In this document: piece after piece, positions 1 through 26,549 of the stretch
How positions within the stretch are numbered: position 1 is the stretch's first letter
Layout of the letters: the number at the start of each line of letters is the position of its first letter
DNA from: a virus
UHGV virus genome: UHGV-0243075
Length of the DNA: 44,002 bases
Direction: 5' to 3' (one strand)
Translations under genes and position numbers: made by a program
Notes under the pieces: generated by a model
What the model saw: the letters and a program-made list of their open reading frames with translations, nothing else
What the model was told of the DNA's origin: nothing
Database searches by the model: none

Positions 1-1776
1 ACAATTGGTGACATTGCTGCGCAGATATCAGTGCAGGGAGAAGCATACAGCCAGTATATATCTTTTATGATGGATAGATACTATGATGGCATTGATTTGA
101 TGGGAATGTCTATATGGATACACTATGAATTAAAAGATGGAAGCGGCAGCGAAGATAGTCCAGTGAATGTAATGTATAACGATAGTACTATCAGATTTAA
201 TTGGATTGTACCAGAAAAAGCAACGCAACAGTCAGGAGACATTAAGATTGGCGTATGGGTAAATGGTACAGCGCCGAATACCAAAGCGTATATATTAAAA
301 ACAGAAGAAAAGATATATACAATACATTCGGGGTTAATTCCAGGGTCTGGTATTACACAGCCAGACCAGAATTGGTTTGAAAATTTTGTTGAGCAAATGG
401 ATAGTAAGGTATCCACTGCCCAGGGCCATGCCAATGATGCCCAGGCCAGTAAGACAGCCGCCGCCGGTTCTGCCGCGGCGTCTGCCCAGTCAGCTACCGC
501 CGCCGCCAAAGCACTGGAGGATAACAAGGTATACGTGGAGAGCCAGAAGGCTGCTTTCGTAGGCTACAACAAGCGTGAGACGGACCTTAAATACGCCAAT
601 GCCCTTATCGGCTCGGCATCCGGCACCACGCAAGTCACAGTGGACGACGCGTGGGAGGCGCCGATACCCGGCCTGGAGATAGCCGGTAAGAGTGAGCAGG
701 GAGCAGACCCCAGCCCGGAATATCCACAGGAGATTGTGAGTACGGATGTCACGGCGGTGACAGTGACGGGAGCTAATCTGTTCGACGACACCACGTTAAT
801 GGCTTACGGAAATACGACTTTTGTACTTTCTGCTGATAGGAGACAAGTTACGATAACTGGTGATAAAAAATATGCTTGTGCGGAATCAGACACACCAGCA
901 CAATTGATTGCTGGAAAAAACGTCACAGTGTCGTGCAACATAAGTAATAAAAATTCAGAAGTACCTGTGGAATTTCAACTATATATCGAATTTCCGGATG
1001 GCACAAAAAATTATTTGCATCATAAGTCTTCGGGCAGTAAAACATTTTCAATTCCAGATAACATAACGAAAGCGACATTTAAATTATTTGTTAATCTCAA
1101 AAACGCAAATTTAGATTCCAAAAATACTGTTGTGTATTCAGATGTTATGGTTAACATTGGCACTACACCCCTTCCATGGGAACCCTACCAGTCCAAGACC
1201 GCATCCATCACCCTCACGAAGCCGTTACGAGGTATCGGGGATTACAGGGACGAAATAACCATGACCAATCGGATTGACCGGTGTATGGAACTGACATTTG
1301 ACGGAAGCGAGGGTTGGGGCGTCTACACTAGTGGTAGCCGCACAGGATTTTCGGCAATTAATGTCCTCCCGATATCAATGAATAATCGGAATGGAATATG
1401 TAATCAAGCACTAGTCGGAGGAAATGAAGAAGTTGAGCGGATTATTTTAGGGAGTAATAATCAAAATCTATATTATTTTTACTGTCCATTTTACGATGCT
1501 ACAGTAGCCGACAAGGGCCTCTCTGCCTGGAAAGCCCACCTTGCTGCCCATCCACTTAAGGTAGTCACTTACCTGGATACCCCGGTAGAGACAGACTTGG
1601 GGGCAGACACCATAGCAGCACTTGCGGAGTTGACCACCTACAAAGGACGGACAACCACCACAGTGACTGCGGAGGGGCCGGAGCCGGACGTGGCGGTGGA
1701 GTATGTACAAGATACAAATGTTGTGATTGCTGAATTAAAAAAACTAATAGAAGGAATACAGAATGTTGAGTCCTAA
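1..1776 (+). CDS. Phage structural fibre-like protein. The 5' end is truncated at the window edge, with frame 1 open from nt 1. Has an Ala/Ser/Gln-rich coiled segment and a beta-rich C-terminal part.
   Basis: The motif AQASKTAAAGSAAASAQSATAAAKALE is typical of Gram-positive phage fibre proteins. No stop in frame 1 between nt 1 and 30. Lies between portal and the minor capsid gene if the genome is circular. Confidence 0.5.
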   Translation, partial: TIGDIAAQISVQGEAYSQYISFMMDRYYDGIDLMGMSIWIHYELKDGSGSEDSPVNVMYNDSTIRFNWIVPEKATQQSGDIKIGVWVNGTAPNTKAYILKTEEKIYTIHSGLIPGSGITQPDQNWFENFVEQMDSKVSTAQGHANDAQASKTAAAGSAAASAQSATAAAKALEDNKVYVESQKAAFVGYNKRETDLKYANALIGSASGTTQVTVDDAWEAPIPGLEIAGKSEQGADPSPEYPQEIVSTDVTAVTVTGANLFDDTTLMAYGNTTFVLSADRRQVTITGDKKYACAESDTPAQLIAGKNVTVSCNISNKNSEVPVEFQLYIEFPDGTKNYLHHKSSGSKTFSIPDNITKATFKLFVNLKNANLDSKNTVVYSDVMVNIGTTPLPWEPYQSKTASITLTKPLRGIGDYRDEITMTNRIDRCMELTFDGSEGWGVYTSGSRTGFSAINVLPISMNNRNGICNQALVGGNEEVERIILGSNNQNLYYFYCPFYDATVADKGLSAWKAHLAAHPLKVVTYLDTPVETDLGADTIAALAELTTYKGRTTTTVTAEGPEPDVAVEYVQDTNVVIAELKKLIEGIQNVES

Positions 1777-2986
1777 TTATCTCCAGCATATAGCTGATGG
1801 TTCCGAAGAAATAGCCTCCCAGCTTCATACATACATTATCCGTCAGATAATAGACCGCATGATGATACGCATAGGCCGCGGCGATGATTACCTGCTCACC
1901 TCCTCTGACCGATGGCGAATACAGATATTGCAGGATGCAGGATATCTGCTGGAGGACATAACGGCAGAGTTATCCAAAATCACTAATCGACAGGAAAAAG
2001 AAATCAAGGCCGCAATGGAAGAAGCTGGAGTCAAGGCCCTGGAATACGACCATAAAATATATGAGGCTGCTGGTTTGTCTCCAACACCGCTTACACAATC
2101 TCCGCAGCTTATTAGGCTAATGGAACGAAACATGAATGCCACTATGGGGGAATGGGAAAACTATACCAGAACCACCGCAGAAGCCGCACAGAGGCTTTTT
2201 ATAAACGCATGTGATAATGCATACCACCTTGTATCTTCTGGGGCTGTATCGTACACACAGGCTGTCAAAGAGGCAGTTAATAATGTGGTATCGGGCGGAG
2301 TGATAGTACACTATCCTTCGGGCCATAAAGACACCATAGAAACTGCCACAGCGCGCGCAGTACGCACCGGAGTAGCCCAGGCCACGGGAGATATCTCTAT
2401 TAAGCGTATGGAAGAAATGGATTGGGATATCATACTGGTGTCGGCGCACATCGGGGCCAGAACCGGGGATGGAGGGCAGAATCCAGGAAATCATTTATGG
2501 TGGCAAGGGCAGTTTTACAGCAGGACTGGAAAGGATAAGCGCTTTCCTCCATTTTCCCAGACTGGATACGGAACTGGTGAAGGGTTATGTGGATGGAACT
2601 GCCGTCATTCCTTCGGAAGCGGTGATGGGGTAAACAATCCATACAAAGACATCCAAACCGCAGACAATTACAAGGTTGAGCAGCTGGAGAAGCGGCAGCG
2701 AACGCTTGAACGGCGCATCAGAAAGGCAAAACGCGAGGTCATGGGGATGCAGGAGGCCGTGGATAAATGCAAGGACGAATCAGTTAAATTTGATATGAAG
2801 TTAGACCTTGACCACAAGTCGTATCTGTTACAGCGGCAGAATAAGGCATATAACGAATTTTGCAAAGAGAACGACTTACGCACCCAGCAAGAACGGCTAC
2901 AGATTGCCAGATGGAACCGGGAGCAGGCGGCAAAGGCCAGGGGAGCAGCGCGGCGGTATCAGAATGCGAAAGGAAAAGAAGAATGA
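1763..2986 (+). CDS. Minor capsid / head morphogenesis protein (MuF / SPP1 gp7 / Phage_min_cap2-like).
   Basis: Conserved HLWWQGQFY...GWNCRHSF region. Coiled-coil, Lys/Arg/Glu-rich C-terminus. Sits in the head module before the scaffold gene. Confidence 0.6.
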   Translation: MLSPNYLQHIADGSEEIASQLHTYIIRQIIDRMMIRIGRGDDYLLTSSDRWRIQILQDAGYLLEDITAELSKITNRQEKEIKAAMEEAGVKALEYDHKIYEAAGLSPTPLTQSPQLIRLMERNMNATMGEWENYTRTTAEAAQRLFINACDNAYHLVSSGAVSYTQAVKEAVNNVVSGGVIVHYPSGHKDTIETATARAVRTGVAQATGDISIKRMEEMDWDIILVSAHIGARTGDGGQNPGNHLWWQGQFYSRTGKDKRFPPFSQTGYGTGEGLCGWNCRHSFGSGDGVNNPYKDIQTADNYKVEQLEKRQRTLERRIRKAKREVMGMQEAVDKCKDESVKFDMKLDLDHKSYLLQRQNKAYNEFCKENDLRTQQERLQIARWNREQAAKARGAARRYQNAKGKEE

Positions 2987-3363
2987 GCAGATGGAAATTA
3001 TTCAACCCTAATCCACGCAATCAGCGTGTGGGGGATTGCCCCATCCGGGCTATAACAAAAGCCCTTGACAGCGACTGGGAAACGGTATTTGCTGGTGTAA
3101 CTGTCTGCGCCTGTGCTTTATCTGATATGCCATCTGCAAACCATGTATGGGGGTCCTACCTACGTCAAAATGGGTTTAAACGGTACATAGTGGATGACCA
3201 CGGACAAGATGTATACACGGTCGAGGACTTTTGCCAGGATAATCCTATAGGAACGTACATCTTAGCAATTACAGGGCATGTGGTGTGTGTGCAGGATGGT
3301 TATTACTGGGATACATGGGACAGCGGTCAAGAAATACCAATATACTACTGGGAAAGGCGATAA
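2983..3363 (+). CDS. Papain-fold cysteine peptidase-like protein. The geometry is that of a C39 bacteriocin-processing peptidase. A transglutaminase-like fold is the alternative.
   Basis: ATG overlaps the upstream TGA (ATGA). Gln-x4-GDC(P) (Cys18), GHVVCV (His106) and downstream Asp have spacing like a C39 Cys/His/Asp triad. 126 aa. Confidence 0.4.
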   Translation: MSRWKLFNPNPRNQRVGDCPIRAITKALDSDWETVFAGVTVCACALSDMPSANHVWGSYLRQNGFKRYIVDDHGQDVYTVEDFCQDNPIGTYILAITGHVVCVQDGYYWDTWDSGQEIPIYYWERR

Positions 3364-3366
3364 TTT

Positions 3367-3660
3367 ATGGAAACATTAAACTCTATTATGGTTGTATGCG
3401 GTTGGCTTATTACTCTTGGAGGCGCAGGAGCCGTAATATACAAATTGTTGCATCCGGCATTTAAGCTAAAAAATCGAGTGGATAAATTAGAAATAAATGT
3501 GGAAAATGATTATAAATCTATCAAAGAAATAAGAGATATGCAATCTCTTTTATGCCAAGGAATGATAGCATTAATTGATAATCGTATAACCGGTAACAAC
3601 ATAGAGGGTTTAAAAAAAACCAAAGAAGCTATGATAAAGCATTTGTCAGAAGGTATTTAA
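3367..3660 (+). CDS. Membrane-anchored coiled-coil protein with an N-terminal TM helix.
   Basis: Hydrophobic stretch IMVVCGWLITLGGAGAVIY followed by a charged helical region. Tight spacing after the previous gene. Confidence 0.5.
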   Translation: METLNSIMVVCGWLITLGGAGAVIYKLLHPAFKLKNRVDKLEINVENDYKSIKEIRDMQSLLCQGMIALIDNRITGNNIEGLKKTKEAMIKHLSEGI

Positions 3661-3671
3661 GGAGCGTTGCG

Positions 3672-3872
3672 TTGAAGGTATATGACTTTACAGTGCCAGA
3701 ACTAAACTATTTTCGTACATATTGTAACTTTACGGATGAAGAACGGGCACTGTTTGAGTACCGGGCCAAGAACTATCCTTTGGAGTATTGCACTGAATTA
3801 ATGAATGTAAGTGTATCCACAGCAAAGAGATTGAGCAGAAAAGTAAACAACAAAATAATCCGAGTATGTTGA
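3672..3872 (+). CDS. Small sigma-70 region-4-like / ArpU-like HTH protein. Putative late transcription regulator.
   Basis: TTG start with an AAGGAG RBS 8 nt upstream. C-terminal ELMNVSVSTAKRLSRKVNNKI resembles a region-4 HTH. Confidence 0.4.
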   Translation: MKVYDFTVPELNYFRTYCNFTDEERALFEYRAKNYPLEYCTELMNVSVSTAKRLSRKVNNKIIRVC

Positions 3873-3964
3873 TACTTGCGTGATACTTTTATAAGTCTTT
3901 GACGACCTGTCAAGGGCTTATTTTTTATGGGATAATTGGATTATAAAAGAACGGAGGGGATATA

Positions 3965-4435
3965 ATGCCGCAACCATTTATCAATCCAAACTATCTGAAT
4001 ACATATCCAAACGCATACCCGTATCAACCGCAGATGCAACCACCTATGGACCGATTGCAGCAGCTACAGGCACCATACCAAATGCCGCAACAGACGCAGG
4101 TTTCACAGGTCCCGCAGACCAACCAGGGAATATTATGGGTGCAGGGTGAAGCCGGGGCAAAGTCGTATTTAGTAGCGCCAAGCACATCCATATTACTGAT
4201 GGATAGCGAAAATGAGTACTTTTATATTAAAACAACAGATGCAGCAGGTATGCCAACACTCCGCACTTTTGAATATAAAGAGATTGTTAATGGACGGAAA
4301 AAGGAATCTGCATCGGCTGAAAATCTGGATGAAAAGTATGTTACCAGAAATGAGTATCAGGATTTAAAGGCAAAATATGATGAATTATATGGACTTTTAG
4401 AAACCAGTACAGCACCAACAGGAAAGGGGAAGTAA
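3965..4435 (+). CDS. Hypothetical protein with a prion-like Pro/Gln/Tyr-rich N-terminus and a globular C-terminal domain.
   Basis: RBS GGAGGGG upstream. N-terminal 55 residues are P/Q/Y/N-rich. The C-terminal part is ILWVQGEAGAKSYLVAP... Confidence 0.55.
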   Translation: MPQPFINPNYLNTYPNAYPYQPQMQPPMDRLQQLQAPYQMPQQTQVSQVPQTNQGILWVQGEAGAKSYLVAPSTSILLMDSENEYFYIKTTDAAGMPTLRTFEYKEIVNGRKKESASAENLDEKYVTRNEYQDLKAKYDELYGLLETSTAPTGKGK

Positions 4436-4438
4436 TAT

Positions 4439-4597
4439 ATGAATCCATTATTTAACATGTTAGGTGGAATGGGTGGAGGTAGCCCAATGGGAGGAATGAT
4501 TCCTGGGATAGGCGGAGGAAACAACCCCATGCAGATGATACAGAAATTTATGGAGTTTAAAAACAATTTCAAGGGAAACCCTCAAGAAGAAGTATAG
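4439..4597 (+). CDS. Small Gly/Met-rich protein, 52 aa.
   Basis: ATG follows an AAAGGGGAAG RBS. Sequence MNPLFNMLGGMGGGSPMGGMIPGIGGGNNPMQ... Not in the ORF track because it is under 60 aa. Confidence 0.4.
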   Translation: MNPLFNMLGGMGGGSPMGGMIPGIGGGNNPMQMIQKFMEFKNNFKGNPQEEV

Positions 4598-4600
4598 AAG

Positions 4601-4696
4601 ATGCTACAGTCCGGCCAGATAACTCAGCGGCAATTAGACCAGGCCCAGCAAATGGCCCGGCAGTTTCAGCAGATGCTTAATGGCATGAAAAAATAG
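4601..4696 (+). CDS. Very small Gln-rich ORF (31 aa), speculative.
   Basis: ATG to TAG fills the gap between neighbouring genes. Weak RBS. Confidence 0.2.
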   Translation: MLQSGQITQRQLDQAQQMARQFQQMLNGMKK

Positions 4697-4750
4697 TACA
4701 TAAATCAATGCGCATGATTTTGTAAATATATTTTAAAGGAGTAGACAATT

Positions 4751-4963
4751 ATGGATTCAGGCTATAGTTTAGCAGACATTGCCGCCGCTACAGGAGGAAC
4801 AAACCGCAACAATGATGGCTTTGGAGATGGCGGCGCATGGTGGATTATTATACTGTTCTTATTTGTTTTCTGTGGCTGGGGCAATGGAAACGGCTTTGGA
4901 AACAATGGAGCAGGAGGTGCAGGATTGCAGGGATTAGCAACACGTGCAGACATCAATGAGTGA
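4751..4963 (+). CDS. Gly/Trp-rich membrane peptide with a double-glycine-type leader (MDSGYSLADIAAATGG), ending at an in-frame TGA.
   Basis: RBS AAAGGAG 9 nt upstream. The leader-like 16-mer ends in GG. A hydrophobic core WWIIILFLFVFCGW is followed by GNGNGFGNNGAGGAG. Confidence 0.5.
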   Translation: MDSGYSLADIAAATGGTNRNNDGFGDGGAWWIIILFLFVFCGWGNGNGFGNNGAGGAGLQGLATRADINE

Positions 4964-5467
4964 TTTGCCCTCAACGGAATCGAAAATGGTATAAGGGGTA
5001 TTCAGCAGGGCATTTGTGATAGCACGTATGCGCTGAACAACACCATTACCAGCGGTTTCAGCGGAGTGGACCGTAGCTTATGCCAGATGGGCTATCAGCT
5101 CCATGATTGCTGCTGCCAGACACAGCGCGCAATTGATGGTGTAAATTATAACCTGGCTACACAGTCATGCGATACCAGAAACACCATTCAGACCGCAACT
5201 AGGGATATTCTGGACAACAACAACAGCAATACAAGAGCTATTCTTGACTTCTTAACTCAGGATAAGATTTCTACCTTACAGGCGGAGAATCAAACCCTTA
5301 GATTCCAGGCAAGCCAGACTGCCCAGAACGGATTTATTGATGCAGTTGGTAACTCAATCGTTGCACAGCTTCGTCAGCCGCAGCCTGTACCGGCTTATAC
5401 GGTTCCAGCGCCATATCCATATGCCTCTAACTGTGGTTGTGGATGCAATACTGGATGCGGGTGCTAA
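4964..5467 (+). CDS. Cys-rich protein (C-terminal CGCGCNTGCGC) in the same frame as 4751..4960, directly after the TGA. Either an independent gene starting at an internal Met (5066) or a readthrough extension.
   Basis: No stop between 4964 and 5467 in the frame of the upstream ORF. Cys cluster HDCCCQ and a C-terminal Cys-Gly repeat. Confidence 0.4.
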   Translation, partial: FALNGIENGIRGIQQGICDSTYALNNTITSGFSGVDRSLCQMGYQLHDCCCQTQRAIDGVNYNLATQSCDTRNTIQTATRDILDNNNSNTRAILDFLTQDKISTLQAENQTLRFQASQTAQNGFIDAVGNSIVAQLRQPQPVPAYTVPAPYPYASNCGCGCNTGCGC

Positions 5468-5676
5468 TGAGAAACGAACAGTTTTACGATAATCTTGCTC
5501 TGTATGCAACTGCATTGCAAATGATAAATTTGCTTTTGATTGTTGGTGATGTGTCAAATAATGATATTATGGAAGTATTGCAACAGGAGAATAAGGAATA
5601 CATGGAAAAGATTATCGACCAAAACAACCGCATATTGCGTATCTTGTCCGAAAAGGACATGTCTACTGAACAGTAG
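5467..5676 (+). CDS. Hypothetical small protein, 69 aa.
   Basis: ATG overlaps the upstream TAA (TAATG). Hydrophobic helix then charged C-terminus. Confidence 0.4.
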   Translation: MRNEQFYDNLALYATALQMINLLLIVGDVSNNDIMEVLQQENKEYMEKIIDQNNRILRILSEKDMSTEQ

Positions 5677-5738
5677 TATTACACACACAGAAGGGTAGGC
5701 ATAAGCTTGCCCTTCTGTGCATATAAGGAGGATTTATT

Positions 5739-6137
5739 ATGGCAGATTTTGTAACTGCTGGGGCACAGACTGTTGCAGTCAATGCAAGCGTTCTGTTTGC
5801 TGCAAACAGGATATATTCTTGCAATTGTCCAAACATAAGGCATGAGGCACTCTCTGGTAGGGTAGTTTTGCTTCCTGGCCTGTACCGCGTAGGATTTAAC
5901 GGAAACTTTTCCGCAGCCGCAGCAGGTGACGTTATTTTTGAAGTACAGCAGGACGGCGAAGGCATTCCCGGTGCAAGAATCCAGAACACAGTTGCCGCCG
6001 GCGCAACAATCAATGGAGCGGCAACTGTAGAAGTAAGGGTGTGCAAACCATGTTGTGCTACCCTATCAGTAAAAAACGTTGGAGCCACAGCAGCGACAGT
6101 ATCAGACGCTAACCTTGTTGTTAGCAGAATAGGTTAA
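5739..6137 (+). CDS. BclA-C-terminal-domain / C1q-TNF-like protein (exosporium-protein-like fold). Tentative.
   Basis: RBS AAGGAGG upstream. GLYRVGFNGNFSAAAAGDVIFEVQQDGEGIPGARIQNTVAAGATINGAATVEVRV resembles BclA CTD beta-sandwich sequences as I recall them. Confidence 0.35.
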   Translation: MADFVTAGAQTVAVNASVLFAANRIYSCNCPNIRHEALSGRVVLLPGLYRVGFNGNFSAAAAGDVIFEVQQDGEGIPGARIQNTVAAGATINGAATVEVRVCKPCCATLSVKNVGATAATVSDANLVVSRIG

Positions 6138-6149
6138 GGGGGTAATGCT

Positions 6150-6689
6150 ATGAGCTATAAGATGATGCAGAATATCCATGAAGAACTGGATAAGATTGCG
6201 GAAAAGGGCCTGAACACTAGCAACCTTGAAACCGCATACAAACTGATAGACATGTGGAAAGACATGGAGAACGTGGAGTACTGGAAGTGCAAAAAAGAGT
6301 ACTACAATCAGGTAATGGACGAAATGGACGGTGGAGAATACAGCGAAGCGCGCCGCAAGCGCGACAGCATGGGACGTTATAGCCGTGCTGATGGAATGTC
6401 GCAGGACTATGATAATGACAGCTCCTATCGCGGCACACGTGGAAAACATTACGTTAGAGAACACTACAGCCGTGCGAACGGTCCGGCCTATGACGACTAC
6501 ATGAATCAGAAGCAGAGCTACAGAAGCGGCGGGAAAGATGAAGATTGCAAGCGGCGTATGCTTGCAGCTTTGGAAGAACATATGGACGAACTGACAGAAG
6601 AATTAGGCGAAATGTCCAAAGATGCCGACTGCCGGGAAGAAAGAGAAACCATGAAAAGGTATATTGAAAAGCTTCGTAATATGATGTAA
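6150..6689 (+). CDS. Tyr/Arg/Ser/Asp-rich low-complexity protein with a helical N-terminus.
   Basis: RBS AAGGGGG upstream. Repeated Y-S-R motifs (YSRADG, YRGTRGKHY, YSRANG, YRSGG). Confidence 0.55.
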   Translation: MSYKMMQNIHEELDKIAEKGLNTSNLETAYKLIDMWKDMENVEYWKCKKEYYNQVMDEMDGGEYSEARRKRDSMGRYSRADGMSQDYDNDSSYRGTRGKHYVREHYSRANGPAYDDYMNQKQSYRSGGKDEDCKRRMLAALEEHMDELTEELGEMSKDADCREERETMKRYIEKLRNMM

Positions 6690-6695
6690 TAAATT

Positions 6696-6721
6696 GGCGG
6701 TGGGTAAAACCTACCGCCTTT
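6696..6721 (+). terminator. Hairpin terminator preceding late-motif copy 1.
   Basis: ggcggtgggt-aaa-acctaccgcc (one G-U pair) followed by ttt. Confidence 0.45.
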
Positions 6722-6722
6722 A

Positions 6723-6763
6723 AAAAATGTGGGGACGATTATTTTTTTTGAATAAGGTAAAAT
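6723..6763 (+). promoter_or_regulatory. Conserved late-promoter-like motif, copy 1: AAAAATGTGGGGACGATT-N15-GGTAAAAT.
   Basis: Identical 18-mer to 38944-38961. Confidence 0.5.
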
Positions 6764-6794
6764 GGGAGTAGGAATAAGCAGAAAGGGTGAAAAC

Positions 6795-6980
6795 ATGGTA
6801 AAAGACGGTTGGGTGTACTGCCCTATATGTAACAATAAAACTCGGACTAAAATCCGGCCTGATACAGTAGCGAAAAACCTTCCAGTATTTTGCCCTGTAT
6901 GTAAGAATACATCCGTAATGAATATTGCAAAAGGTAAAGCAAGTGATTTAGATAAAAGTGGTTTATCACCTGCAACATAA
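6795..6980 (+). CDS. Cysteine-rich KTR-type zinc-ribbon mini-protein.
   Basis: CPICNNKTRTKIRPDT...FCPVCK matches the Cys_rich_KTR pattern as I recall it. Lies after a terminator and a late-promoter-like motif. Confidence 0.5.
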   Translation: MVKDGWVYCPICNNKTRTKIRPDTVAKNLPVFCPVCKNTSVMNIAKGKASDLDKSGLSPAT

Positions 6981-7005
6981 CTTTAGAGCCAGACGCCAGA
7001 CGCAG

Positions 7006-7046
7006 AGCCATACAAATTACAGCAATGTAGTTTGCATGGCTTTTTA
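7006..7046 (+). terminator. Rho-independent terminator preceded by a conserved 26-mer (6984-7009).
   Basis: agccatacaaa-ttacagcaatgtag-tttgcatggct followed by ttttt. Confidence 0.55.
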
Positions 7047-7249
7047 CTATATTTGAACCTCCCTCCTATAGCACATGTCCTTAATAGAAACAGGTCCTAG
7101 CTCATAGAGTAAACGGCCTGGAGGTTGAAAAGCGGATGCAATTTCCGGCATGTGCGTTTTGGGACACGCCAAGTCCTACAAAATGGCAAACCGTTGGTGG
7201 ACGGTTACACACCTACAAATAACCTAATAACGGAAAAGGAGAATCATCA

Positions 7250-7870
7250 ATGAAAACCGAAGAATTAAAAGCACAGGGATTGACAGAGGAACAGATATCT
7301 TTTGTCATGGCTGAAAATGGGAAAGACCTCAAAAAGTTGCAGAAAGAAAACGACAATCTGAGCGCGGACCGGGATACCTGGAAAGAAAAAGCAGAAGCGG
7401 CAGAAACAACGCTTAAAGGCTTTGAAGGGGTTGACCTGGAGACGATGCAGAAAGAGTTGTCTGACTGGAAACAGAAGGCTACAGAAGCCGAAAAAAAAGC
7501 CCAGGAACAGATTTATGAGCGTGATTTTGCGGACGCACTAAAAACAGAATTTGAAGGAATTAAATTTTCCAGTGAGGCAGCAAAACGGGCAATCATGGCA
7601 GAAGTGAAAGAGGCCGGATTGAAATTGAAAGATGGGAAAATATTGGGCTTAAATGACCTTATTTCTCAGATGAAAGAGAAAGATGCTTCGGCGTTTATTG
7701 ATGAGGGACAACAAAAAGCACAGCAGAATGCAGCGCGGTTTACACAGCCTTTCCAGAGGCAGAATCAGAGCGGAGGAATAACGAAAGACCAGATTATGGG
7801 GATTAAGGATGCCTCCGAGCGGCAGTCCGCTATTGCTGCGAACATTCATTTATTTGGTAAAGGAGAGTAA
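7250..7870 (+). CDS. Scaffolding protein.
   Basis: Strong RBS AAAGGAG. Highly charged coiled-coil protein immediately upstream of the major capsid gene. Confidence 0.7.
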   Translation: MKTEELKAQGLTEEQISFVMAENGKDLKKLQKENDNLSADRDTWKEKAEAAETTLKGFEGVDLETMQKELSDWKQKATEAEKKAQEQIYERDFADALKTEFEGIKFSSEAAKRAIMAEVKEAGLKLKDGKILGLNDLISQMKEKDASAFIDEGQQKAQQNAARFTQPFQRQNQSGGITKDQIMGIKDASERQSAIAANIHLFGKGE

Positions 7871-7872
7871 AA

Positions 7873-9045
7873 ATGTCAGCGAAAGCTAACTTGATTACAA
7901 CAGAAGATATTCATGTAACGGCTCGGGAATTGGATTTTGTTACCCGGTTTGAAAGAAACTGGCAGCACCTGCGGGATATTCTGGGCATTATGCGCCCGAT
8001 TAAAAAGCAACCCGGCGCTACGCTGAAAAGCAAGTACGCCGAGGGAACGCTGGAAAACGGAAAAGTAGGAGAAGGAGAGGACATCCCTTACAGCAAATTC
8101 GTAGTTAAGGAAAAGGAATACGCAGAAATGACTATCGAAAAATATGCGAAAGCCGTTTCCATCGAGGCAATCAAAGACCACGGATATGAAAATGCTGTGC
8201 AAATGACAGACGATGAATTTTTGTTTCAGCTTCAGTCGAATGTAACAGGGCGATTCTATACATATCTGAACACAGGCACACTTACTGGAACGGAAACTAC
8301 ATTCCAGATGGCCCTTGCTATGGCAAAAGGAATGGTAGAAAACAAATTCAAACAGATGCACCGTAATGTTACGGGGGTGGTTGGATTTGTGAATATTCTG
8401 GATGTATATCAGTACCTGGGTGCCGCTGAAATCACTGTGCAGAATCAGTTTGGTTTCCAGTATCTTAAGGATTTCATGGGATTCAATACAATATTTCTGC
8501 TATCTGATTCTGAAATAGAAAGTGGAAAAGTAATAGCTACACCAGTGGAAAACATTGTAATGTACTATGTTGACCCAAATGAAAGCGATTTTTCACGGGC
8601 TGGTCTGGTATATACTACTGGGGACGGAGAGACAAACCTTATCGGATTCCATACCCAGGGTAATTACAATACCGCTGTTTCCGAAGCATTTGCAATAATG
8701 GGACTTACCTTGTTTGCAGAATATATTGACGGAATCGCGGTTGTTGATATTACTGATAATCCCGTTCTTGGAACACTGACGGTAACTTCTTCGGCCGGAA
8801 GCACATCAGGAAACACAAAATTAACCATTGAACCTTCCCTCGAAACAGGACACATGTACAAGTACAAAGTGGCAGCTGATTCCGCTCCAGAAGTGAAATA
8901 TGGTCAGAATGTAAAGACGTGGACAGCATGGGACGGTAAATCTGATATCAAGGCAACGACCGGGAATCATATCACAGTAGTTGAGTGTGACAATACCTAT
9001 AAGGCGTTGAAATCTGGAAATGACGATGTAACGTCTCACTCTTAA
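7873..9045 (+). CDS. Major capsid protein.
   Basis: 390 aa directly after the scaffold gene, with a strong RBS. Composition and position are typical of siphovirus major capsid proteins. Confidence 0.75.
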   Translation: MSAKANLITTEDIHVTARELDFVTRFERNWQHLRDILGIMRPIKKQPGATLKSKYAEGTLENGKVGEGEDIPYSKFVVKEKEYAEMTIEKYAKAVSIEAIKDHGYENAVQMTDDEFLFQLQSNVTGRFYTYLNTGTLTGTETTFQMALAMAKGMVENKFKQMHRNVTGVVGFVNILDVYQYLGAAEITVQNQFGFQYLKDFMGFNTIFLLSDSEIESGKVIATPVENIVMYYVDPNESDFSRAGLVYTTGDGETNLIGFHTQGNYNTAVSEAFAIMGLTLFAEYIDGIAVVDITDNPVLGTLTVTSSAGSTSGNTKLTIEPSLETGHMYKYKVAADSAPEVKYGQNVKTWTAWDGKSDIKATTGNHITVVECDNTYKALKSGNDDVTSHS

Positions 9046-9062
9046 AGAAAGGAGAATCCGGC

Positions 9063-9557
9063 ATGGCATATGCAGACTATGAGTTTTACACAACAAAATA
9101 CTACGGCAGTTCCATACCGGATTCCCAATCATTTGATAAGCAGGCAGAACGGGCAAGCGACTTTCTTGACATTATAACATTTGAACGATTGGTTGACGGC
9201 CTCCCAGACAATGAACGAGCGCAAACCAAAATCAAGAAAGCCGTATGTGCCTTAGCTGATAAGCTGTATGGTTTGGAACTGGCAGAAAAACAGGCGCTAT
9301 CTGCCGCCGCTGGAAGTATAACCAGCGGGACCGGCGGCGCAACCACAGGTGTTATCACGTCAAAGTCATCCGGTTCCGAATCAATCAGCTATGCATCCCC
9401 GTCTGAAATAGCTAACGGAGCTAAAGCCTGGAGTACTGTATACTCTGCGGCAGGAGATGAACAGGCAACCAATAAACTCCTGTATGATACTGCAAAGGTG
9501 TATCTGATGGGAGTAAGAGATAACGAAGGGACACCGCTTTTATATGCAGGATTGTAA
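9063..9557 (+). CDS. Head-tail connector / DNA-packaging adaptor (gp6-like).
   Basis: N-terminal YADYEFYTTKYYGSSIPD... is typical of head-tail connector family proteins. Position is right after the capsid gene. Confidence 0.55.
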   Translation: MAYADYEFYTTKYYGSSIPDSQSFDKQAERASDFLDIITFERLVDGLPDNERAQTKIKKAVCALADKLYGLELAEKQALSAAAGSITSGTGGATTGVITSKSSGSESISYASPSEIANGAKAWSTVYSAAGDEQATNKLLYDTAKVYLMGVRDNEGTPLLYAGL

Positions 9558-9894
9558 AGTGAACATTCTGGGGACAGAATGGGAAATAAAGTTCGGCGAT
9601 GAAAGTCAATACCCAAACCTAGAAGGAATTGACGGCTATTGCGATTCATCCATAAAAGAAATAGTTGTGAATGACATGAAGAAAAGCGAAGGAAGAACTT
9701 GGGCAAAAGAAAATCTGAAAGAATATCAAAGAATCTGTCTCCGGCATGAGATTATCCATGCGTTTATGGAAGAATCTGGGCTGTCTGGCAATTTTGAGCA
9801 TAAGTCAATAGGGATTGAAGAAACCACGGTTGACTGGTTTGCCATTCAGTTTCCTAAGATTTTCAAAGTATTCAAGGAATTGAATTTACTCTGA
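9544..9894 (+). CDS. Hypothetical head-tail region protein carrying an HExxH motif (LRHEIIHAF).
   Basis: Overlaps the upstream gene. An alternative GTG start at 9559 is possible. Zinc-metallopeptidase-like motif. Confidence 0.45.
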   Translation: MQDCKVNILGTEWEIKFGDESQYPNLEGIDGYCDSSIKEIVVNDMKKSEGRTWAKENLKEYQRICLRHEIIHAFMEESGLSGNFEHKSIGIEETTVDWFAIQFPKIFKVFKELNLL

Positions 9895-9912: not shown

Positions 9913-10176
9913 ATGGATATTACAACATTGGGAACATGTGTAGCTATTGTGGCTCTGAGCTATGTGGTTGGTCTTGGATGCAAGGCTGCAAAGAAAATAC
10001 CGGACGAATGGATTCCGGTTATTATGGCTGTTGTGGGTGGTGTTCTTGGCGCGCTTGGTATGGGAACTATACCAGACTTCCCGGCATCGGACTACATCAC
10101 GGCCGTAGCAGTTGGAGCTATGTCTGGCCTTACGGCTACGGGAATTAACCAGATGTATAAGCAGGCTAAGAAATGA
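9913..10176 (+). CDS. Small 2-3 TM membrane protein, holin-like, in an unusual position.
   Basis: RBS AAAGGATAAG upstream. Three hydrophobic segments and a charged C-terminus (MYKQAKK). Confidence 0.45.
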   Translation: MDITTLGTCVAIVALSYVVGLGCKAAKKIPDEWIPVIMAVVGGVLGALGMGTIPDFPASDYITAVAVGAMSGLTATGINQMYKQAKK

Positions 10177-21673: not shown

Positions 21674-21799
21674 ATGTATACAACATTAAAAAGGTTATAT
21701 AACAATGGAAAAGGGCCATTAACCGTTGATGAGCTTAACCGGGCTGTATTACTTGGATGGATTACAGAGCAGCAGAAAAACAGTATAATTGGAGGATGA
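21674..21799 (+). CDS. XkdX-family small protein, 41 aa.
   Basis: MYTTLKRLYNNGKGPLTVDELNRAVLLGWITEQQKNSIIGG matches the XkdX pattern (W..L...AV..G.IT). Confidence 0.55.
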   Translation: MYTTLKRLYNNGKGPLTVDELNRAVLLGWITEQQKNSIIGG

Positions 21800-21801
21800 T
21801 T

Positions 21802-22542
21802 ATGAGAGACATCACATTGTGTCATCCACGCTTGCAGCTTTTAGCAGGTCAGTTGGTGGACGAATGTAATAAACAGGGATTAAAAATTAAGATAGGAGAG
21901 ACACTGCGGACTGTGGCAGAGCAGGATGCTTTATATGCTCAGGGCAGGACTAAACCGGGCAACATTGTAACTAATGCGCCTGGTAGTAGTTATAGCTCCT
22001 ATCATCAGTGGGGAACAGCTTTTGATATATTTCGTAATGACGGCACTGGTGCTTATAATGAAATTGGTGGATTTTTTAACCGTGTAGGTGCTATCGGTGT
22101 ATCTTTGGGACTTGAATGGGGTGGAAATTGGAAGTCTCCTGTAGACAAGCCACATTTCCAATTGCCTGATTGGGGAAGTAGCACATCTGGAATCAAAAAA
22201 CTATATCGCACCCCGGATGAATTTATGAAAACCTGGGTGACAGAGGGACGCACTGGCTGGATTAAGGATAATAACGGCTGGTGGTATCGCAGACCAGATG
22301 GAACTTACCCGGCTAATAAGTGGTGTGTCATAAATCACCATTGGTATCTATTTAATAAGGATGGATATGCTTGCACCAGCTGGCACCGCTGGAATGGTAG
22401 TGTATGTGACCCGGATGATGGTTCGGGGGATTGGTATTACTTTGACCCTACACCAAACGGTCCATTGGAGGGGGCGTGCTGGCATAGTCAGGATAATGGG
22501 GCGCAGAATATCTGGTACATAGAGGACTCTAATTCAATATAA
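21802..22542 (+). CDS. Endolysin. N-terminal peptidase M15 (VanY / L-Ala-D-Glu peptidase-like) domain plus C-terminal cell-wall-binding repeats.
   Basis: GGAGG RBS 6 nt upstream. The VanY-like region includes TVAEQDALYAQGRT and SYHQWGTAFD. W/Y-rich repeats follow (GWWYRRPDGTYP, HHWYLFNKDGY, GDWYYFDP). Confidence 0.75.
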   Translation: MRDITLCHPRLQLLAGQLVDECNKQGLKIKIGETLRTVAEQDALYAQGRTKPGNIVTNAPGSSYSSYHQWGTAFDIFRNDGTGAYNEIGGFFNRVGAIGVSLGLEWGGNWKSPVDKPHFQLPDWGSSTSGIKKLYRTPDEFMKTWVTEGRTGWIKDNNGWWYRRPDGTYPANKWCVINHHWYLFNKDGYACTSWHRWNGSVCDPDDGSGDWYYFDPTPNGPLEGACWHSQDNGAQNIWYIEDSNSI

Positions 22543-26094: not shown

Positions 26095-26549
26095 AATAAA
26101 GAAGGGAGGGAAAACAAAGAAACCGCCAGAAGGCTATTTCTGACGGTTCAATGCTAAATTTATTTACCCTATGTACTTTGCAGGTTTTCACCGCGCTTTA
26201 TAGCCCAAACGCTTCTTTAAGTACCCTGTCACTTATGCAGTTTTAGTTCTGCGGAGTGTGCGCCCATTAGCTGACAGGTTATAAGGAGTACATAATACGG
26301 TGGGATATTATAGGATATCAACCATGAGTTTTTGCCTCTTCTCTGAGGAACTCCGCCGTATTTGCCACTACATTTGACCAGTTTAAAGTGCTTTGGTTCC
26401 ACTATTGCGACCTTATATTAAGGGAACAGGGCAAGACAGTTTTTTTATAAGCATAGAAACCTCCTTGCCCAAGTATGGGTCGAATATATTCTAACATGGT
26501 TCATAGGAAAAATCAAAGAAAATTTTCTATATTTTAAGGGGGTGATATA

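What the first reader, a model, noticed from the sequence alone, without database searches (positions are those of the whole stretch)
2983..6980. Cargo cassette of about 12 small genes between the minor capsid and scaffold genes, with spore-coat/exosporium-like composition
Siphoviruses normally go straight from the MuF/min_cap2 gene to the scaffold. Here about 4 kb of small ORFs intervene. They encode a papain-fold peptidase, a sigma-r4-like HTH, a prion-like P/Q/Y-rich protein, Gly/Met-rich and Gly/Trp-rich peptides, a protein ending CGCGCNTGCGC, a BclA-CTD/C1q-like protein, a Tyr/Arg/Ser/Asp-rich protein and a Cys-rich KTR zinc ribbon. Low-complexity P/Q-, Gly-, Tyr- and Cys-rich small proteins plus a BclA-like domain and a possible cross-linking enzyme are characteristic of spore coat and exosporium repertoires. 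Phage-borne sporulation regulators are established knowledge. A phage-borne coat-like structural cassette would be new. The alternative is that these are virion decoration or ejection proteins.
Basis: partly seen in the sequence, partly recalled or inferred. Interest (0 to 1): 0.8.

Follow-up and report, generated by a model that had tools for sequence, protein, structure and literature searches.

The report
Relocatable accessory gene module in Clostridia phages
The 4 kb between the minor-capsid and scaffold genes is a real ten-gene copy of a very widespread but uncharacterised phage module that sits at different genome positions in different phages, so it is cargo rather than head machinery, and the idea that it builds spore coat is not supported.

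Summary
The block is real and coding. It holds ten genes (A-J), not about twelve. The "Gly/Met peptide", the "Gly/Trp peptide" and the "protein ending CGCGC" are fragments of two genes, E and F. Each is cut by a nonsense codon found only in this window.

Comparative genomics changes the interpretation. The core order is membrane/coiled-coil protein, HTH, D, E, F, then a small beta protein. It recurs in at least 90 loci, and the F family has at least 8000 clusters. The module occupies at least four genome positions, most often just after the lysis genes. So it is a self-contained relocatable module, not part of head morphogenesis.

All ten genes are under purifying selection. Even so, this lineage has lost module function three independent times.

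The spore-coat reading is weakened by four results:
- An intact copy lies in a prophage of Vescimonas, a genus reported as non-spore-forming.
- The core lies in C. perfringens phages that have no annotated integrase.
- No coat family other than BclA_C matches any of the proteins.
- No sigE or sigK promoter consensus is present.

My best guess is a membrane-anchored, cytoplasm-facing complex made late in infection and linked to XhlA/holin genes. The function is unproven.

The parts
2983..3363 (+). Gene A, 126 aa: standalone papain-fold cysteine peptidase-like protein. Its start overlaps the MuF stop (ATGA).
3367..3660 (+). Gene B, 97 aa: N-terminal transmembrane helix plus coiled coil. It occupies the slot that an XhlA-family gene fills in most other phages.
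   Evidence: Maximum 19-residue hydropathy 1.98 at residue 6. No Pfam or PHROG hit. Position equivalence. The XhlA-family proteins in that slot hit phrog_937/1193 'hemolysin'.
3672..3872 (+). Gene C, 66 aa (TTG start): standalone sigma-70 region 4 / LuxR-GerE-type HTH. It is not a full sigma factor.
   Evidence: phrog_1190 'RNA polymerase sigma factor', positions 110-155 of 167, E 8e-5. The family profile hits LuxR/NarL/GerE and sigma r4 chains in the PDB at 1.7e-6 to 1e-4. Present in 84 loci, always directly upstream of D or of S59-A-D.
3891..3936 (+). Terminator-like hairpin followed by U6, then an extended -10-like promoter element (TGgGATAAT) in front of D.
   Evidence: -15.5 kcal/mol, z -4.7. 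The same layout of hairpin, T-run and a TGnGAnAAT-like element follows the HTH gene in most related loci. In post-lysis loci Rfam RAGATH-31 lies there.
3965..4435 (+). Gene D, 156 aa: P/Q/Y-rich N-terminus, small beta-rich core, C-terminal coiled coil.
   Evidence: phrog_21718, E 8e-48. Composition. Family alignment. No PDB relative by profile search. Possible A-D fusion proteins exist.
4439..4696 (+). Gene E, 85 codons: Gly/Met-rich N-terminus and a Q-rich helical C-terminus. It is interrupted by a private TAG at 4595-4597.
   Evidence: phrog_22984 covers residues 1-85, E 7e-20. 43 of 43 relatives have CAG or CAA here. No tRNA gene in the window.
4751..5467 (+). Gene F, 238 codons: single Gly/Trp-rich transmembrane helix, a long N/Q/T-rich helical region with an invariant CCC, and a Pro-rich then Cys-rich C-terminus. 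It is interrupted by a private TGA at 4961-4963.
   Evidence: phrog_16490 covers residues 1-238, E 2e-62. 42 of 42 relatives have GGN here. The family has at least 8000 90 %-identity clusters. Invariant W43, G44, T64, C120-122. No PDB relative.
5467..5676 (+). Gene G, 69 aa: small helical protein. An optional member, also present in C. perfringens phages.
   Evidence: dN/dS 0.10. Homologue in vB_CpeS-17DYC.
5686..5719 (+). Very stable stem-loop between G and H, with no U-run after it.
   Evidence: -27.1 kcal/mol, z -7.05.
5739..6137 (+). Gene H, 132 aa: standalone BclA-C-terminal-domain / TNF-C1q-like jelly-roll with conserved Cys residues.
   Evidence: Pfam BclA_C hits in 9 of 16 close homologues, best 1.5e-7, but not in the window copy itself. 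AF2 pLDDT 89. Foldseek top hits are F-BclA CTD (1.5e-8), BclA, BxpB and ExsFA, followed by phage fibre tips and TNF/C1q. Replaced by an unrelated Cys-flanked beta protein ('altH') in 62 loci.
6150..6689 (+). Gene I, 179 aa: helical ends flanking an R/Y/S/D/G-rich centre with the conserved motif HYVR(G/E)HYSR.
   Evidence: phrog_28802, E 1e-70. Composition. dN/dS 0.03.
6696..6718 (+). Hairpin after gene I. In many relatives this is the junction where opposite-strand cargo genes are inserted.
   Evidence: -18.5 kcal/mol. Inserts of 1.2-1.8 kb in relatives.
6795..6980 (+). Gene J, 61 aa: Cys_rich_KTR zinc ribbon. It is not part of the conserved module and is found only in window-type phages.
   Evidence: PF14205, E 7e-19, 67.7 bits against a 25.5 cut-off. 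Distribution.
7004..7048 (+). Terminator-like hairpin followed by U5, after gene J.
   Evidence: -19.9 kcal/mol, z -5.75.
7070..7226 (+). Two known structured-RNA motifs in the leader of the scaffold gene: RAGATH-21 (7070-7156) and GP20-b (7162-7226).
   Evidence: Rfam gathering-score hits of 83.8 and 39.4 bits. RAGATH-21 lies at the same place in L002 and L126.

Best explanation
SHOWN. The stretch is one copy of a self-contained, relocatable phage gene module. It is not part of the head-assembly pathway. The core order is: bitopic membrane/coiled-coil protein (B here; an XhlA-family protein in most phages), a small GerE/sigma-r4-type HTH (C), D, E, F, then a small beta-rich Cys-containing protein (H here). 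The optional partners here are the papain-fold peptidase A, G and the R/Y-rich protein I. J is a separate add-on. In this window the module has been inserted between MuF and the scaffold gene. Hairpins partition it into A-B-C | D-E-F-G | H-I | J. Two of its genes (E and F) carry nonsense codons found in no relative.

INFERRED. None of the proteins has a signal peptide. F has one transmembrane helix with an acidic N-terminal stub, which suggests N-out and C-in. Genes overlap or abut. I therefore infer that the products assemble into a complex on the cytoplasmic face of the cell membrane, anchored by F and by B or XhlA. A would act on or with D, H or I. Expression would be gated by C through the hairpin/promoter (or RAGATH-31) leader that always follows the C gene.

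GUESS (about 0.3). The module is co-directional with late genes everywhere. It travels with an XhlA-family gene and usually abuts the holin and endolysin genes. My most likely guess is that the complex serves the terminal, membrane and envelope stage of the lytic cycle, meaning lysis timing or egress. It appears conditionally dispensable.
For: - Conserved order in 47 close loci and about 90 diverse loci.
- Four positions: MuF|scaffold; endolysin/holin|integrase; connector|neck; after the lysis genes in C. perfringens phages.
- The D-I block is 95-100 % identical between phages whose MuF and A are only about 70 % identical.
- dN/dS is 0.02-0.14.
- XhlA-family identity of the upstream gene.
- Holin and endolysin adjacency.
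- Transmembrane and charge data.
- A co-occurs only with H and I, and possible A-D fusions exist.
- Hairpin plus promoter-like leader after the HTH gene, and RAGATH-31 in that leader in other loci.
- Dispensability: private nonsense codons, and independent deletions in L014 and L049.
Against: - No protein of the module other than the upstream XhlA-family gene resembles a known lysis factor.
- B itself has no XhlA hit.
- In the 50-85 kb phages the module is not next to an endolysin.
- The terminator-promoter layout would equally suit expression in lysogens.
- The topology of F and the existence of a complex are inferred, not computed. Structure-prediction quota prevented a multimer model.
- The A-D fusions could be gene-calling artefacts.
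- There are no expression or proteomic data.
Confidence: 0.45

Rival explanations
1. The module is phage-borne spore-coat or exosporium cargo. It would be expressed in the mother cell of a sporulating lysogen, where H (BclA/ExsF-like), Cys-rich F, Q-rich D and Tyr-rich I join or remodel the spore surface. A would process or cross-link them, and C would act like GerE.
For: - The best structural matches of H are all Bacillus exosporium proteins: F-BclA, BclA, BxpB and ExsFA. Pfam BclA_C hits close homologues.
- There are no signal peptides, which fits assembly in the mother-cell cytoplasm.
- C is a standalone HTH of GerE size and class.
- The composition resembles coat proteins.
- Hosts identified for this phage group (Enterocloster) and for the distant carriers (C. 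perfringens) are spore formers (sporulation status from general knowledge).
- The terminator-promoter layout allows autonomous expression.
Against: - An intact full module, including H and I, lies in a prophage of Vescimonas fastidiosa. That genus is reported and predicted to be non-spore-forming (PMC11334427).
- The core is carried by C. perfringens phages with no annotated integrase.
- H is replaced by an unrelated protein in most loci.
- No coat family matches A-G or I.
- No transglutaminase appears among A's fold neighbours.
- No sigE or sigK consensus is present in 2900-7300.
- The module is always embedded co-directionally in late operons.
- The BclA_C-like fold also matched phage fibre tips in the same search.
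Confidence: 0.08
2. Virion-associated proteins such as capsid decoration, internal head or ejection proteins. In this phage they would be encoded in the head module because they are packaged or attached during head assembly.
For: - In two arrangement types the module lies inside the structural cluster.
- TNF/C1q-like jelly-rolls occur in phage fibres and spikes.
- MuF-adjacent genes can encode packaged cargo (general knowledge).
Against: - Most loci place the module after the lysis genes, outside the structural cluster.
- F and B are integral membrane proteins, and tailed virions have no membrane.
- Nonsense codons in E and F, and deletions of D-H or D-I, occur in otherwise conserved relatives.
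- The module carries its own HTH regulator and internal terminators.
Confidence: 0.1
3. A lysogen-expressed membrane function such as superinfection exclusion, defence or another lysogenic-conversion trait. It would be driven from the promoter downstream of the C-gene terminator.
For: - The commonest position, between lysis genes and integrase/att, is the classical conversion site.
- The units are moron-like, each bounded by a terminator and a promoter.
- The membrane anchor F.
- Recurrent loss in some lineages, as expected of conditionally useful cargo.
Against: - No PADLOC hit.
- In post-lysis loci the truly variable cargo (serpin, ACPS, aminotransferase) lies downstream of the module, so the module behaves as the conserved part.
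- It is present in C. perfringens phages with no annotated integrase.
- Deep conservation of order over F identities down to about 30 % is unusual for conversion genes.
Confidence: 0.17
4. A bacteriocin-like export system. The C39-like peptidase A would cleave double-glycine leaders from the Gly-rich proteins E and F, which would act as membrane-active peptides.
For: - The nearest folds to A are C39 double-glycine peptidase domains.
- In some relatives the F N-terminus (...SASDVAVLTGG) resembles a double-glycine leader.
Against: - The leader-like motif is not conserved across the F family. GN is commoner than GG, and several subgroups have unrelated N-termini.
- A is absent from most module copies.
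- There is no ABC transporter or immunity gene nearby.
- No Pfam C39 match.
- F is 238 aa long with a large conserved C-terminal domain.
Confidence: 0.04

Closest known systems
BclA C-terminal domain / ExsFA-BxpB (Bacillus exosporium TNF-like jelly-roll proteins)
   Same: H has the same fold (Foldseek E 1.5e-8 to 1e-6, TM 0.74-0.78). Close homologues pass as Pfam BclA_C. Like ExsFA/BxpB, it is a standalone domain of about 130-170 aa.
   Different: - It has no collagen-like repeats and no exosporium-targeting N-terminus.
- It is encoded in phages, including a prophage in a host genus reported as non-spore-forming.
- It is interchangeable with an unrelated protein at the same position.
PBSX/SPbeta-type lysis cassettes with XhlA (xhlA-xhlB-xlyA)
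   Same: In most phages the module begins with an XhlA-family gene (phrog_937/1193). It abuts holin and amidase genes and is co-directional with late genes.
   Different: - HTH-D-E-F-H has no counterpart in known lysis cassettes.
- In this window XhlA is replaced by B, which has the reverse topology.
- The holin (9913-10176) and the endolysin (21757-22542) lie elsewhere.
Phage morons / lysogenic-conversion cassettes
   Same: It is an insertion between conserved structural genes, bounded by hairpin terminators with a promoter-like element. Its position varies between phages, and it is occasionally lost.
   Different: - It comprises ten genes with deeply conserved order and purifying selection.
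- Its families are far more widespread than typical morons (F at least 8000 clusters; A 2819 representatives at 50 % identity).
Peptidase C39 (double-glycine leader peptidase domains of PCAT/ComA transporters) and Josephin-type cysteine peptidases
   Different: - No sequence-profile match.
- It is a standalone 126-aa protein with no transporter.
- No conserved GG-leader substrate was identified.
GerE / LuxR-type and sigma-70 region 4 HTH proteins
   Same: C is a standalone HTH of 66 aa. Its family profile matches LuxR/NarL/GerE and sigma r4 chains.
   Different: - No sigma region 2, so it is not a sigma factor.
- The window copy has no Pfam GerE hit.
- Its targets are unknown.

Membership tests
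BclA_C (PF18573) / C1q-TNF jelly-roll (gene H) | Sequence match to the family HMM | tested here: inconclusive
   The window copy has no hit at E<=1. Nine of 16 homologues at 63-95 % identity do hit, best 1.5e-7. Precomputed PF18573 hits on P0016 and P0017.
BclA_C (PF18573) / C1q-TNF jelly-roll (gene H) | Ten-stranded TNF-like jelly-roll fold | tested here: met
   AF2 pLDDT 89, all-beta. Foldseek top hits are 9h38, 1wck, 8d02 and 7r1m, E 1.5e-8 to 2e-6, TM 0.71-0.78.
BclA-type exosporium glycoprotein | Collagen-like GXX repeat stalk and an N-terminal exosporium-targeting region | tested here: not met
   H is 132 aa. The jelly-roll spans nearly the whole protein and there are no GXX repeats.
Known spore coat/exosporium families (CotY/Z-ExsY, CdeC, GerQ, CotG/CotH substrates, CotJ) | Profile match of A-G, I or J to any such family | tested here: not met
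   Pfam-A and NCBIfam scans of all ten proteins gave no such hit at E<=1 and E<=0.1. Profile-versus-PDB searches for D and F were negative.
Spore-coat cargo (functional class) | The host forms endospores wherever the module is maintained | tested here: not met
   An intact module lies in a Vescimonas fastidiosa MM35 prophage. Vescimonas is reported and predicted to be non-spore-forming (PMC11334427). Only one such host could be checked.
Spore-coat cargo (functional class) | Mother-cell (sigE/sigK) promoters upstream of the genes | tested here: not met
   Regex scan of 2900-7300 with B. subtilis-type consensus sequences gave 0 sigE and 0 sigK sites. This is a weak test because the consensus for Lachnospiraceae is not established.
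Transglutaminase Tgl-like cross-linking enzyme (gene A) | Fold neighbourhood or sequence match to transglutaminases | tested here: not met
Peptidase C39 | Papain-like fold with a catalytic Cys/His(/Asp) | tested here: met
Peptidase C39 | HMM match, association with an ABC transporter, and double-glycine leader substrates | tested here: not met
   No Pfam C39 hit. No transporter in any locus. The GG-leader-like motif in F is not conserved.
Sigma-70 family sigma factor (gene C) | Region 2 (-10 recognition and core binding) in addition to region 4 | tested here: not met
   C is 66 aa. Only the region-4/LuxR-type HTH matches.
Cys_rich_KTR (PF14205) (gene J) | HMM match above the gathering score | tested here: met
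   67.7 bits against a 25.5 cut-off, E 7.4e-19.
XhlA family (gene B) | Profile match; coiled coil followed by a C-terminal transmembrane anchor | tested here: not met
   B has an N-terminal transmembrane helix and no PHROG or Pfam hit. The genes at the equivalent position in other phages do match phrog_937/1193.
Programmed stop-codon recoding (TAG->Gln, TGA->Gly) | In-frame stops recurring in relatives or other genes, and a suppressor tRNA | tested here: not met
   Both stops are private to the window (0 of 43 and 0 of 42 relatives). No tRNA gene is present. The other long ORFs are intact.
MuF-associated polymorphic toxin cargo (gene A) | Obligate linkage of the downstream domain to MuF | tested here: not met
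   In post-lysis loci A lies between S59 and D, far from MuF.
Known anti-phage defence systems | Match to PADLOC models | tested here: not met
   No hit apart from a marginal 0.0077 for G.

The most novel reading that the evidence does not exclude
The HTH-D-E-F-jelly-roll module, with its XhlA-type partner, could be a previously unrecognised, widespread multi-protein system of Clostridia phages. It would build a proteinaceous, partly cross-linked (Cys/Tyr/Gln-rich) layer or scaffold on the cytoplasmic face of a host membrane. If so, this would be a new class of phage-encoded intracellular architecture, distinct from virion, lysis or defence proteins.
Probability: 0.12. Interest if true: 0.85.

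Novelty: new variant of a known kind. Interest (0 to 1): 0.55.

Why it matters
The families in this block are among the commonest uncharacterised genes of human-gut Clostridia phages. F has at least 8000 clusters at 90 % identity, and A has 2819 representatives at 50 % identity. This analysis shows that they form one coherent, mobile, selectively maintained module with its own regulator and leader RNA. It also gives a defined core, two variants, natural knock-outs, and cultured carriers in which it can be tested: Enterocloster and Vescimonas lysogens and C. perfringens phages. Learning what it does would annotate thousands of phage genomes. It could also reveal a new late-stage or host-modifying function specific to phages of Clostridia. 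For the scan itself, composition-based resemblance to spore coat proteins was not a reliable guide here.

Tried and rejected
- **Stop-codon recoding or selenocysteine** for the in-frame TAG and TGA. Rejected: both are private point changes (CAG->TAG, GGA->TGA) and there is no tRNA gene.
- **Double-glycine leader processing of F or E by A.** The motif is not conserved and A is absent from most modules.
- **Homology between H and the alternative protein at the same slot (altH), between I and DUF7841, and between B and XhlA.** hhalign probabilities were 2.7 % or lower.
- **Pfam DUF3992/CotZ-type identity for altH.** No hit.
- **Defence system.** PADLOC was negative.
- **Sequence searches of A, H, D and F against the PDB.** Only the HTH profile gave significant hits.
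- **Domain fusions of A as functional clues.** Only tandem A-A and possible A-D fusions were found, and none has a Pfam domain.
- **Literature.** Nothing was found on these families, on RAGATH-21/31 function, or on phage-borne coat genes. The CP39O/CP26F virion-proteome paper is not held.
- **Host survey.** The genome-collection scan with protein I returned only two close loci and could not be repeated, so host range rests on a few named hosts.

Full report
**1. What is in the window**

Between the MuF-like minor-capsid gene (1763-2986) and the scaffold gene (7250-7870) lie about 4.2 kb of small ORFs on the + strand. I resolve them into ten genes:

| Gene | Coordinates | Size | Description |
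|---|---|---|---|
| A | 2983-3363 | 126 aa | papain-fold peptidase-like |
| B | 3367-3660 | 97 aa | N-terminal transmembrane helix plus coiled coil |
| C | 3672-3872 | 66 aa | HTH |
| D | 3965-4435 | 156 aa | P/Q/Y-rich N-terminus |
| E | 4439-4696 | 85 codons | Gly/Met-rich N-terminus |
| F | 4751-5467 | 238 codons | transmembrane helix, Cys-rich |
| G | 5467-5676 | 69 aa | small helical protein |
| H | 5739-6137 | 132 aa | jelly-roll |
| I | 6150-6689 | 179 aa | R/Y/S/D-rich centre |
| J | 6795-6980 | 61 aa | zinc ribbon |

E carries a TAG at 4595-4597 and F carries a TGA at 4961-4963. The PHROG profiles phrog_22984 and phrog_16490 run across these stops.

In every aligned relative these codons are CAG/CAA (43 of 43) and GGA/GGC/GGT (42 of 42). 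The window has no tRNA gene. These are therefore private nonsense mutations or sequencing errors, not recoding.

**2. Are they genes?**

Yes.
- Six have strong PHROG matches, all of unknown function.
- The whole set recurs in the same order in 47 IMG/VR contigs, in Dulem virus 35 and in MT835739.
- Pairwise dN/dS is 0.02-0.14 for all ten. MuF is 0.12, scaffold 0.125 and the major capsid protein 0.078.

The composition statements are accurate.

**3. What the individual proteins are**

- **C.** It is a standalone sigma-r4/LuxR-GerE-type HTH (phrog_1190; profile against the PDB at 1.7e-6 to 1e-4, including GerE and sigma factors). It is far too short to be a sigma factor.
- **H.** It is a TNF/C1q-like jelly-roll. 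Its best matches are the Bacillus exosporium proteins F-BclA, BclA, BxpB and ExsFA (E 1.5e-8 to 2e-6). Phage fibre or spike tips and TNF/C1q proteins follow. Pfam BclA_C hits 9 of 16 close homologues but not the window copy.
- **J.** It is Cys_rich_KTR.
- **B, D, E, F, G, I.** None has a Pfam, NCBIfam, PADLOC or PDB relative.

The host of this phage group is Enterocloster. A is 100 % identical to proteins of E. clostridioformis, E. bolteae and E. aldenensis, and a related locus lies in E. hominis.

**4. The decisive comparative result**

The F family is very large, with at least 8000 clusters at 90 % identity. I collected 80 diverse F-encoding viral loci and classified their neighbours with iterated profiles.

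*Invariant core.* A bitopic membrane/coiled-coil gene comes first, then the HTH, D, E, F and a small Cys-containing beta protein. The first gene is either an XhlA-family gene (phrog_937/1193 "hemolysin") or a B-like gene.

*Two variants.*
- Variant 1, as in the window: [S59] [A] D E F H I [X129/DUF7841].
- Variant 2: D E F altH [DUF7841]. altH is not detectably related to H.

A occurs only together with H and I.

*At least four genome positions, always co-directional with late genes.*
- (i) Between MuF and scaffold (window type).
- (ii) Between endolysin/holin and the integrase. This is the commonest position.
- (iii) Inside the structural cluster, after the capsid and connector genes, in 50-85 kb phages.
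- (iv) After the lysis genes and before the recombination and replication genes in C. perfringens phages vB_CpeS-17DYC, PMQ04 and XP41-N3. The full vB_CpeS-17DYC record and the PMQ04 region I examined carry no annotated integrase; XP41-N3 was not checked.

Within the window's own lineage, the D-I block is 95-100 % identical between phages whose MuF and A are only about 70 % identical. That indicates modular exchange. The block is therefore a relocatable module, not a step in head assembly.

**5. Internal organisation**

In the window, strong hairpins follow four genes:
- after C: -15.5 kcal/mol, followed by U6
- after G: -27.1 kcal/mol
- after I: -18.5 kcal/mol
- after J: -19.9 kcal/mol, followed by U5

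An extended -10-like element (TGgGATAAT) follows the first hairpin. The same layout follows the HTH gene in most loci: a hairpin, a T-run, then a TGnGAnAAT-like box. In the post-lysis arrangement this leader contains the Rfam motif RAGATH-31. The scaffold leader in the window carries RAGATH-21 and GP20-b.

Genes D/E, F/G and MuF/A overlap or abut. Database proteins that look like A-D fusions exist (P0359, P0399, P0421). I treat these with caution because they could be gene-calling artefacts.

**6. Dispensability**

Eight positions in the first 12 kb of the window differ from all relatives. Six of these fall in the 4-kb cassette, and all six change the protein. Two are the nonsense codons. By my own calculation the binomial p is about 0.02.

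Two relatives carry independent deletions. L014 lacks D-G and half of H. L049 has a clean junction from mid-D to the end of I.

Loss of function has therefore occurred three times among about 48 close genomes, against a background of strong purifying selection. That pattern suits a conditionally useful accessory function. It does not suit an essential virion component.

**7. Testing the spore-coat idea**

In favour:
- the fold of H
- the absence of signal peptides
- the GerE-class HTH
- the composition
- spore-forming hosts (Enterocloster and C. perfringens; sporulation status from general knowledge)

Against:
- (a) A complete, intact variant-1 module lies at the end of a prophage in Vescimonas fastidiosa MM35. 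It comprises a B-like gene, holin, amidase, HTH, S59, A, D, E, F, H, I and X129. [quoted passage not shown]
- (b) The core is carried by C. perfringens phages with no annotated integrase.
- (c) H is replaced by an unrelated protein in most copies.
- (d) Nothing else matches a coat family.
- (e) A groups with peptidases, and no transglutaminase is listed.
- (f) No sigE or sigK consensus occurs in 2900-7300. This is a weak test.
- (g) The module is always embedded in late operons.
- (h) The paper on sporulation genes in gut phages that I checked mentions no coat or exosporium genes. The idea would indeed be new, but the evidence here points away from it.

I put it at about 0.08.

**8. Testing the virion idea**

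F and B are membrane proteins. The module usually lies outside the structural cluster. It has its own regulator and terminators. It tolerates nonsense codons and deletions. I put it at about 0.1.

**9. Most likely mechanism**

*Shown.* This is a relocatable, regulated, selectively maintained module. It includes two membrane-anchored proteins and several cytoplasmic low-complexity or beta-rich partners, with optional peptidase A.

*Inferred.*
- The products form a complex on the cytoplasmic face of the membrane. F has a net -3 N-terminal stub before its single helix, which suggests N-out and C-in.
- C gates expression through the leader.
- A acts with D, H or I.

*Guess, about 0.3.* The module travels with an XhlA-family gene and usually abuts the holin and endolysin genes. 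I therefore guess that it serves the terminal membrane and envelope stage of infection, meaning lysis timing or egress. A lysogen-expressed membrane function such as exclusion or conversion is the main alternative (about 0.17). A bacteriocin-like reading is unlikely (about 0.04).

**10. Novelty and verdict**

The families are catalogued in PHROGs only as "unknown function". I found no literature on them.

Three results are new here. The families are recognised as one coherent mobile module with a defined core and two variants. Known RNA motifs sit in its leaders. Natural knock-outs and cultured carriers exist.

The window's own copy is partly broken. Interest is moderate: the object is common and unexplained, but the striking spore-coat interpretation is not supported.

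Noticed in passing
window 4595-4597 and 4961-4963: Two in-frame stop codons split genes E and F: TAG where relatives have CAG/CAA, and TGA where relatives have GGN. Both are private to this window. Six of the eight private substitutions in the first 12 kb fall in the cassette, and all six change the protein.
   Followed up: yes
window 7070-7156 and 7162-7226: Rfam RAGATH-21 (83.8 bits) and GP20-b (39.4 bits) lie in the 270-nt leader of the scaffold gene. RAGATH-21 is at the same place in Dulem virus 35 (L002 8678-8754) and in L126.
   Followed up: partly
window 26117-26278 (- strand): Strong Rfam hit to FuFi-1 RNA (135.7 bits) in the lysogeny/early region.
   Followed up: no
L057 7965-8018; L070 2174-2227; L078 1247-1299; L099 7325-7379: Rfam RAGATH-31 lies between the HTH gene and the S59/D genes in the post-lysis version of the module. 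It is a candidate leader or attenuator of the module. Spurious ORFs translated from it contaminated my 'S59' family.
   Followed up: partly
window 9913-10176: A Phage_holin_5_2 gene (E 2.8e-21) sits among the head-tail connector genes, 11.6 kb upstream of the endolysin (21757-22542, M15/VanY plus choline-binding repeats). The same odd placement recurs in window-type phages and in 50-85 kb phages.
   Followed up: partly
window 31-1776: A 581-aa ORF directly upstream of MuF has no Pfam hit. It has an Ala-rich central stretch and a beta-rich C-terminal half. Dulem virus 35 has a 497-aa hypothetical gene between portal and MuF at the equivalent place.
   Followed up: no
L006, L008, L019, L022, L034, about 8550-9850 (between I and J): Many close relatives carry 1.2-1.8 kb of variable genes on the opposite strand at the I|J junction. 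These include an XRE-type HTH, a conserved 109-113 aa protein, and 160-343 aa Cys-rich proteins that I read, without a search, as AP2/HNH-like. The window lacks this insert.
   Followed up: partly
L014 7485-7791; L049 2529/2530: Natural deletions remove D-G plus half of H (L014) or mid-D to the end of I (L049) in otherwise closely related phages.
   Followed up: yes
L052 4976-5527 (- strand), Dulem virus 33: A gene annotated as an endonuclease (HNH-type by my reading) is inserted on the opposite strand between E and F. An Rfam int-alpA RNA hit lies next to it (5548-5614, - strand).
   Followed up: no
proteins P0268, P0272 (97 aa, = gene B, window 3367-3660): Public records name the 97-aa B protein 'CTP synthase' (Enterocloster bolteae, E. 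aldenensis). This is almost certainly a mis-annotation. It is also placed in the same 90 % cluster as protein A.
   Followed up: no
proteins P0359, P0399, P0421; P0337, P0370: Database proteins that look like A-D fusions, and tandem A-A duplications, one with an N-terminal hydrophobic segment. They may be real fusions or gene-calling artefacts.
   Followed up: partly
L126 12395-12469 and 17010-17093: A tRNA gene and a 'skipping-rope' RNA (63 bits) in a window-type relative. Neither is present in the window.
   Followed up: no
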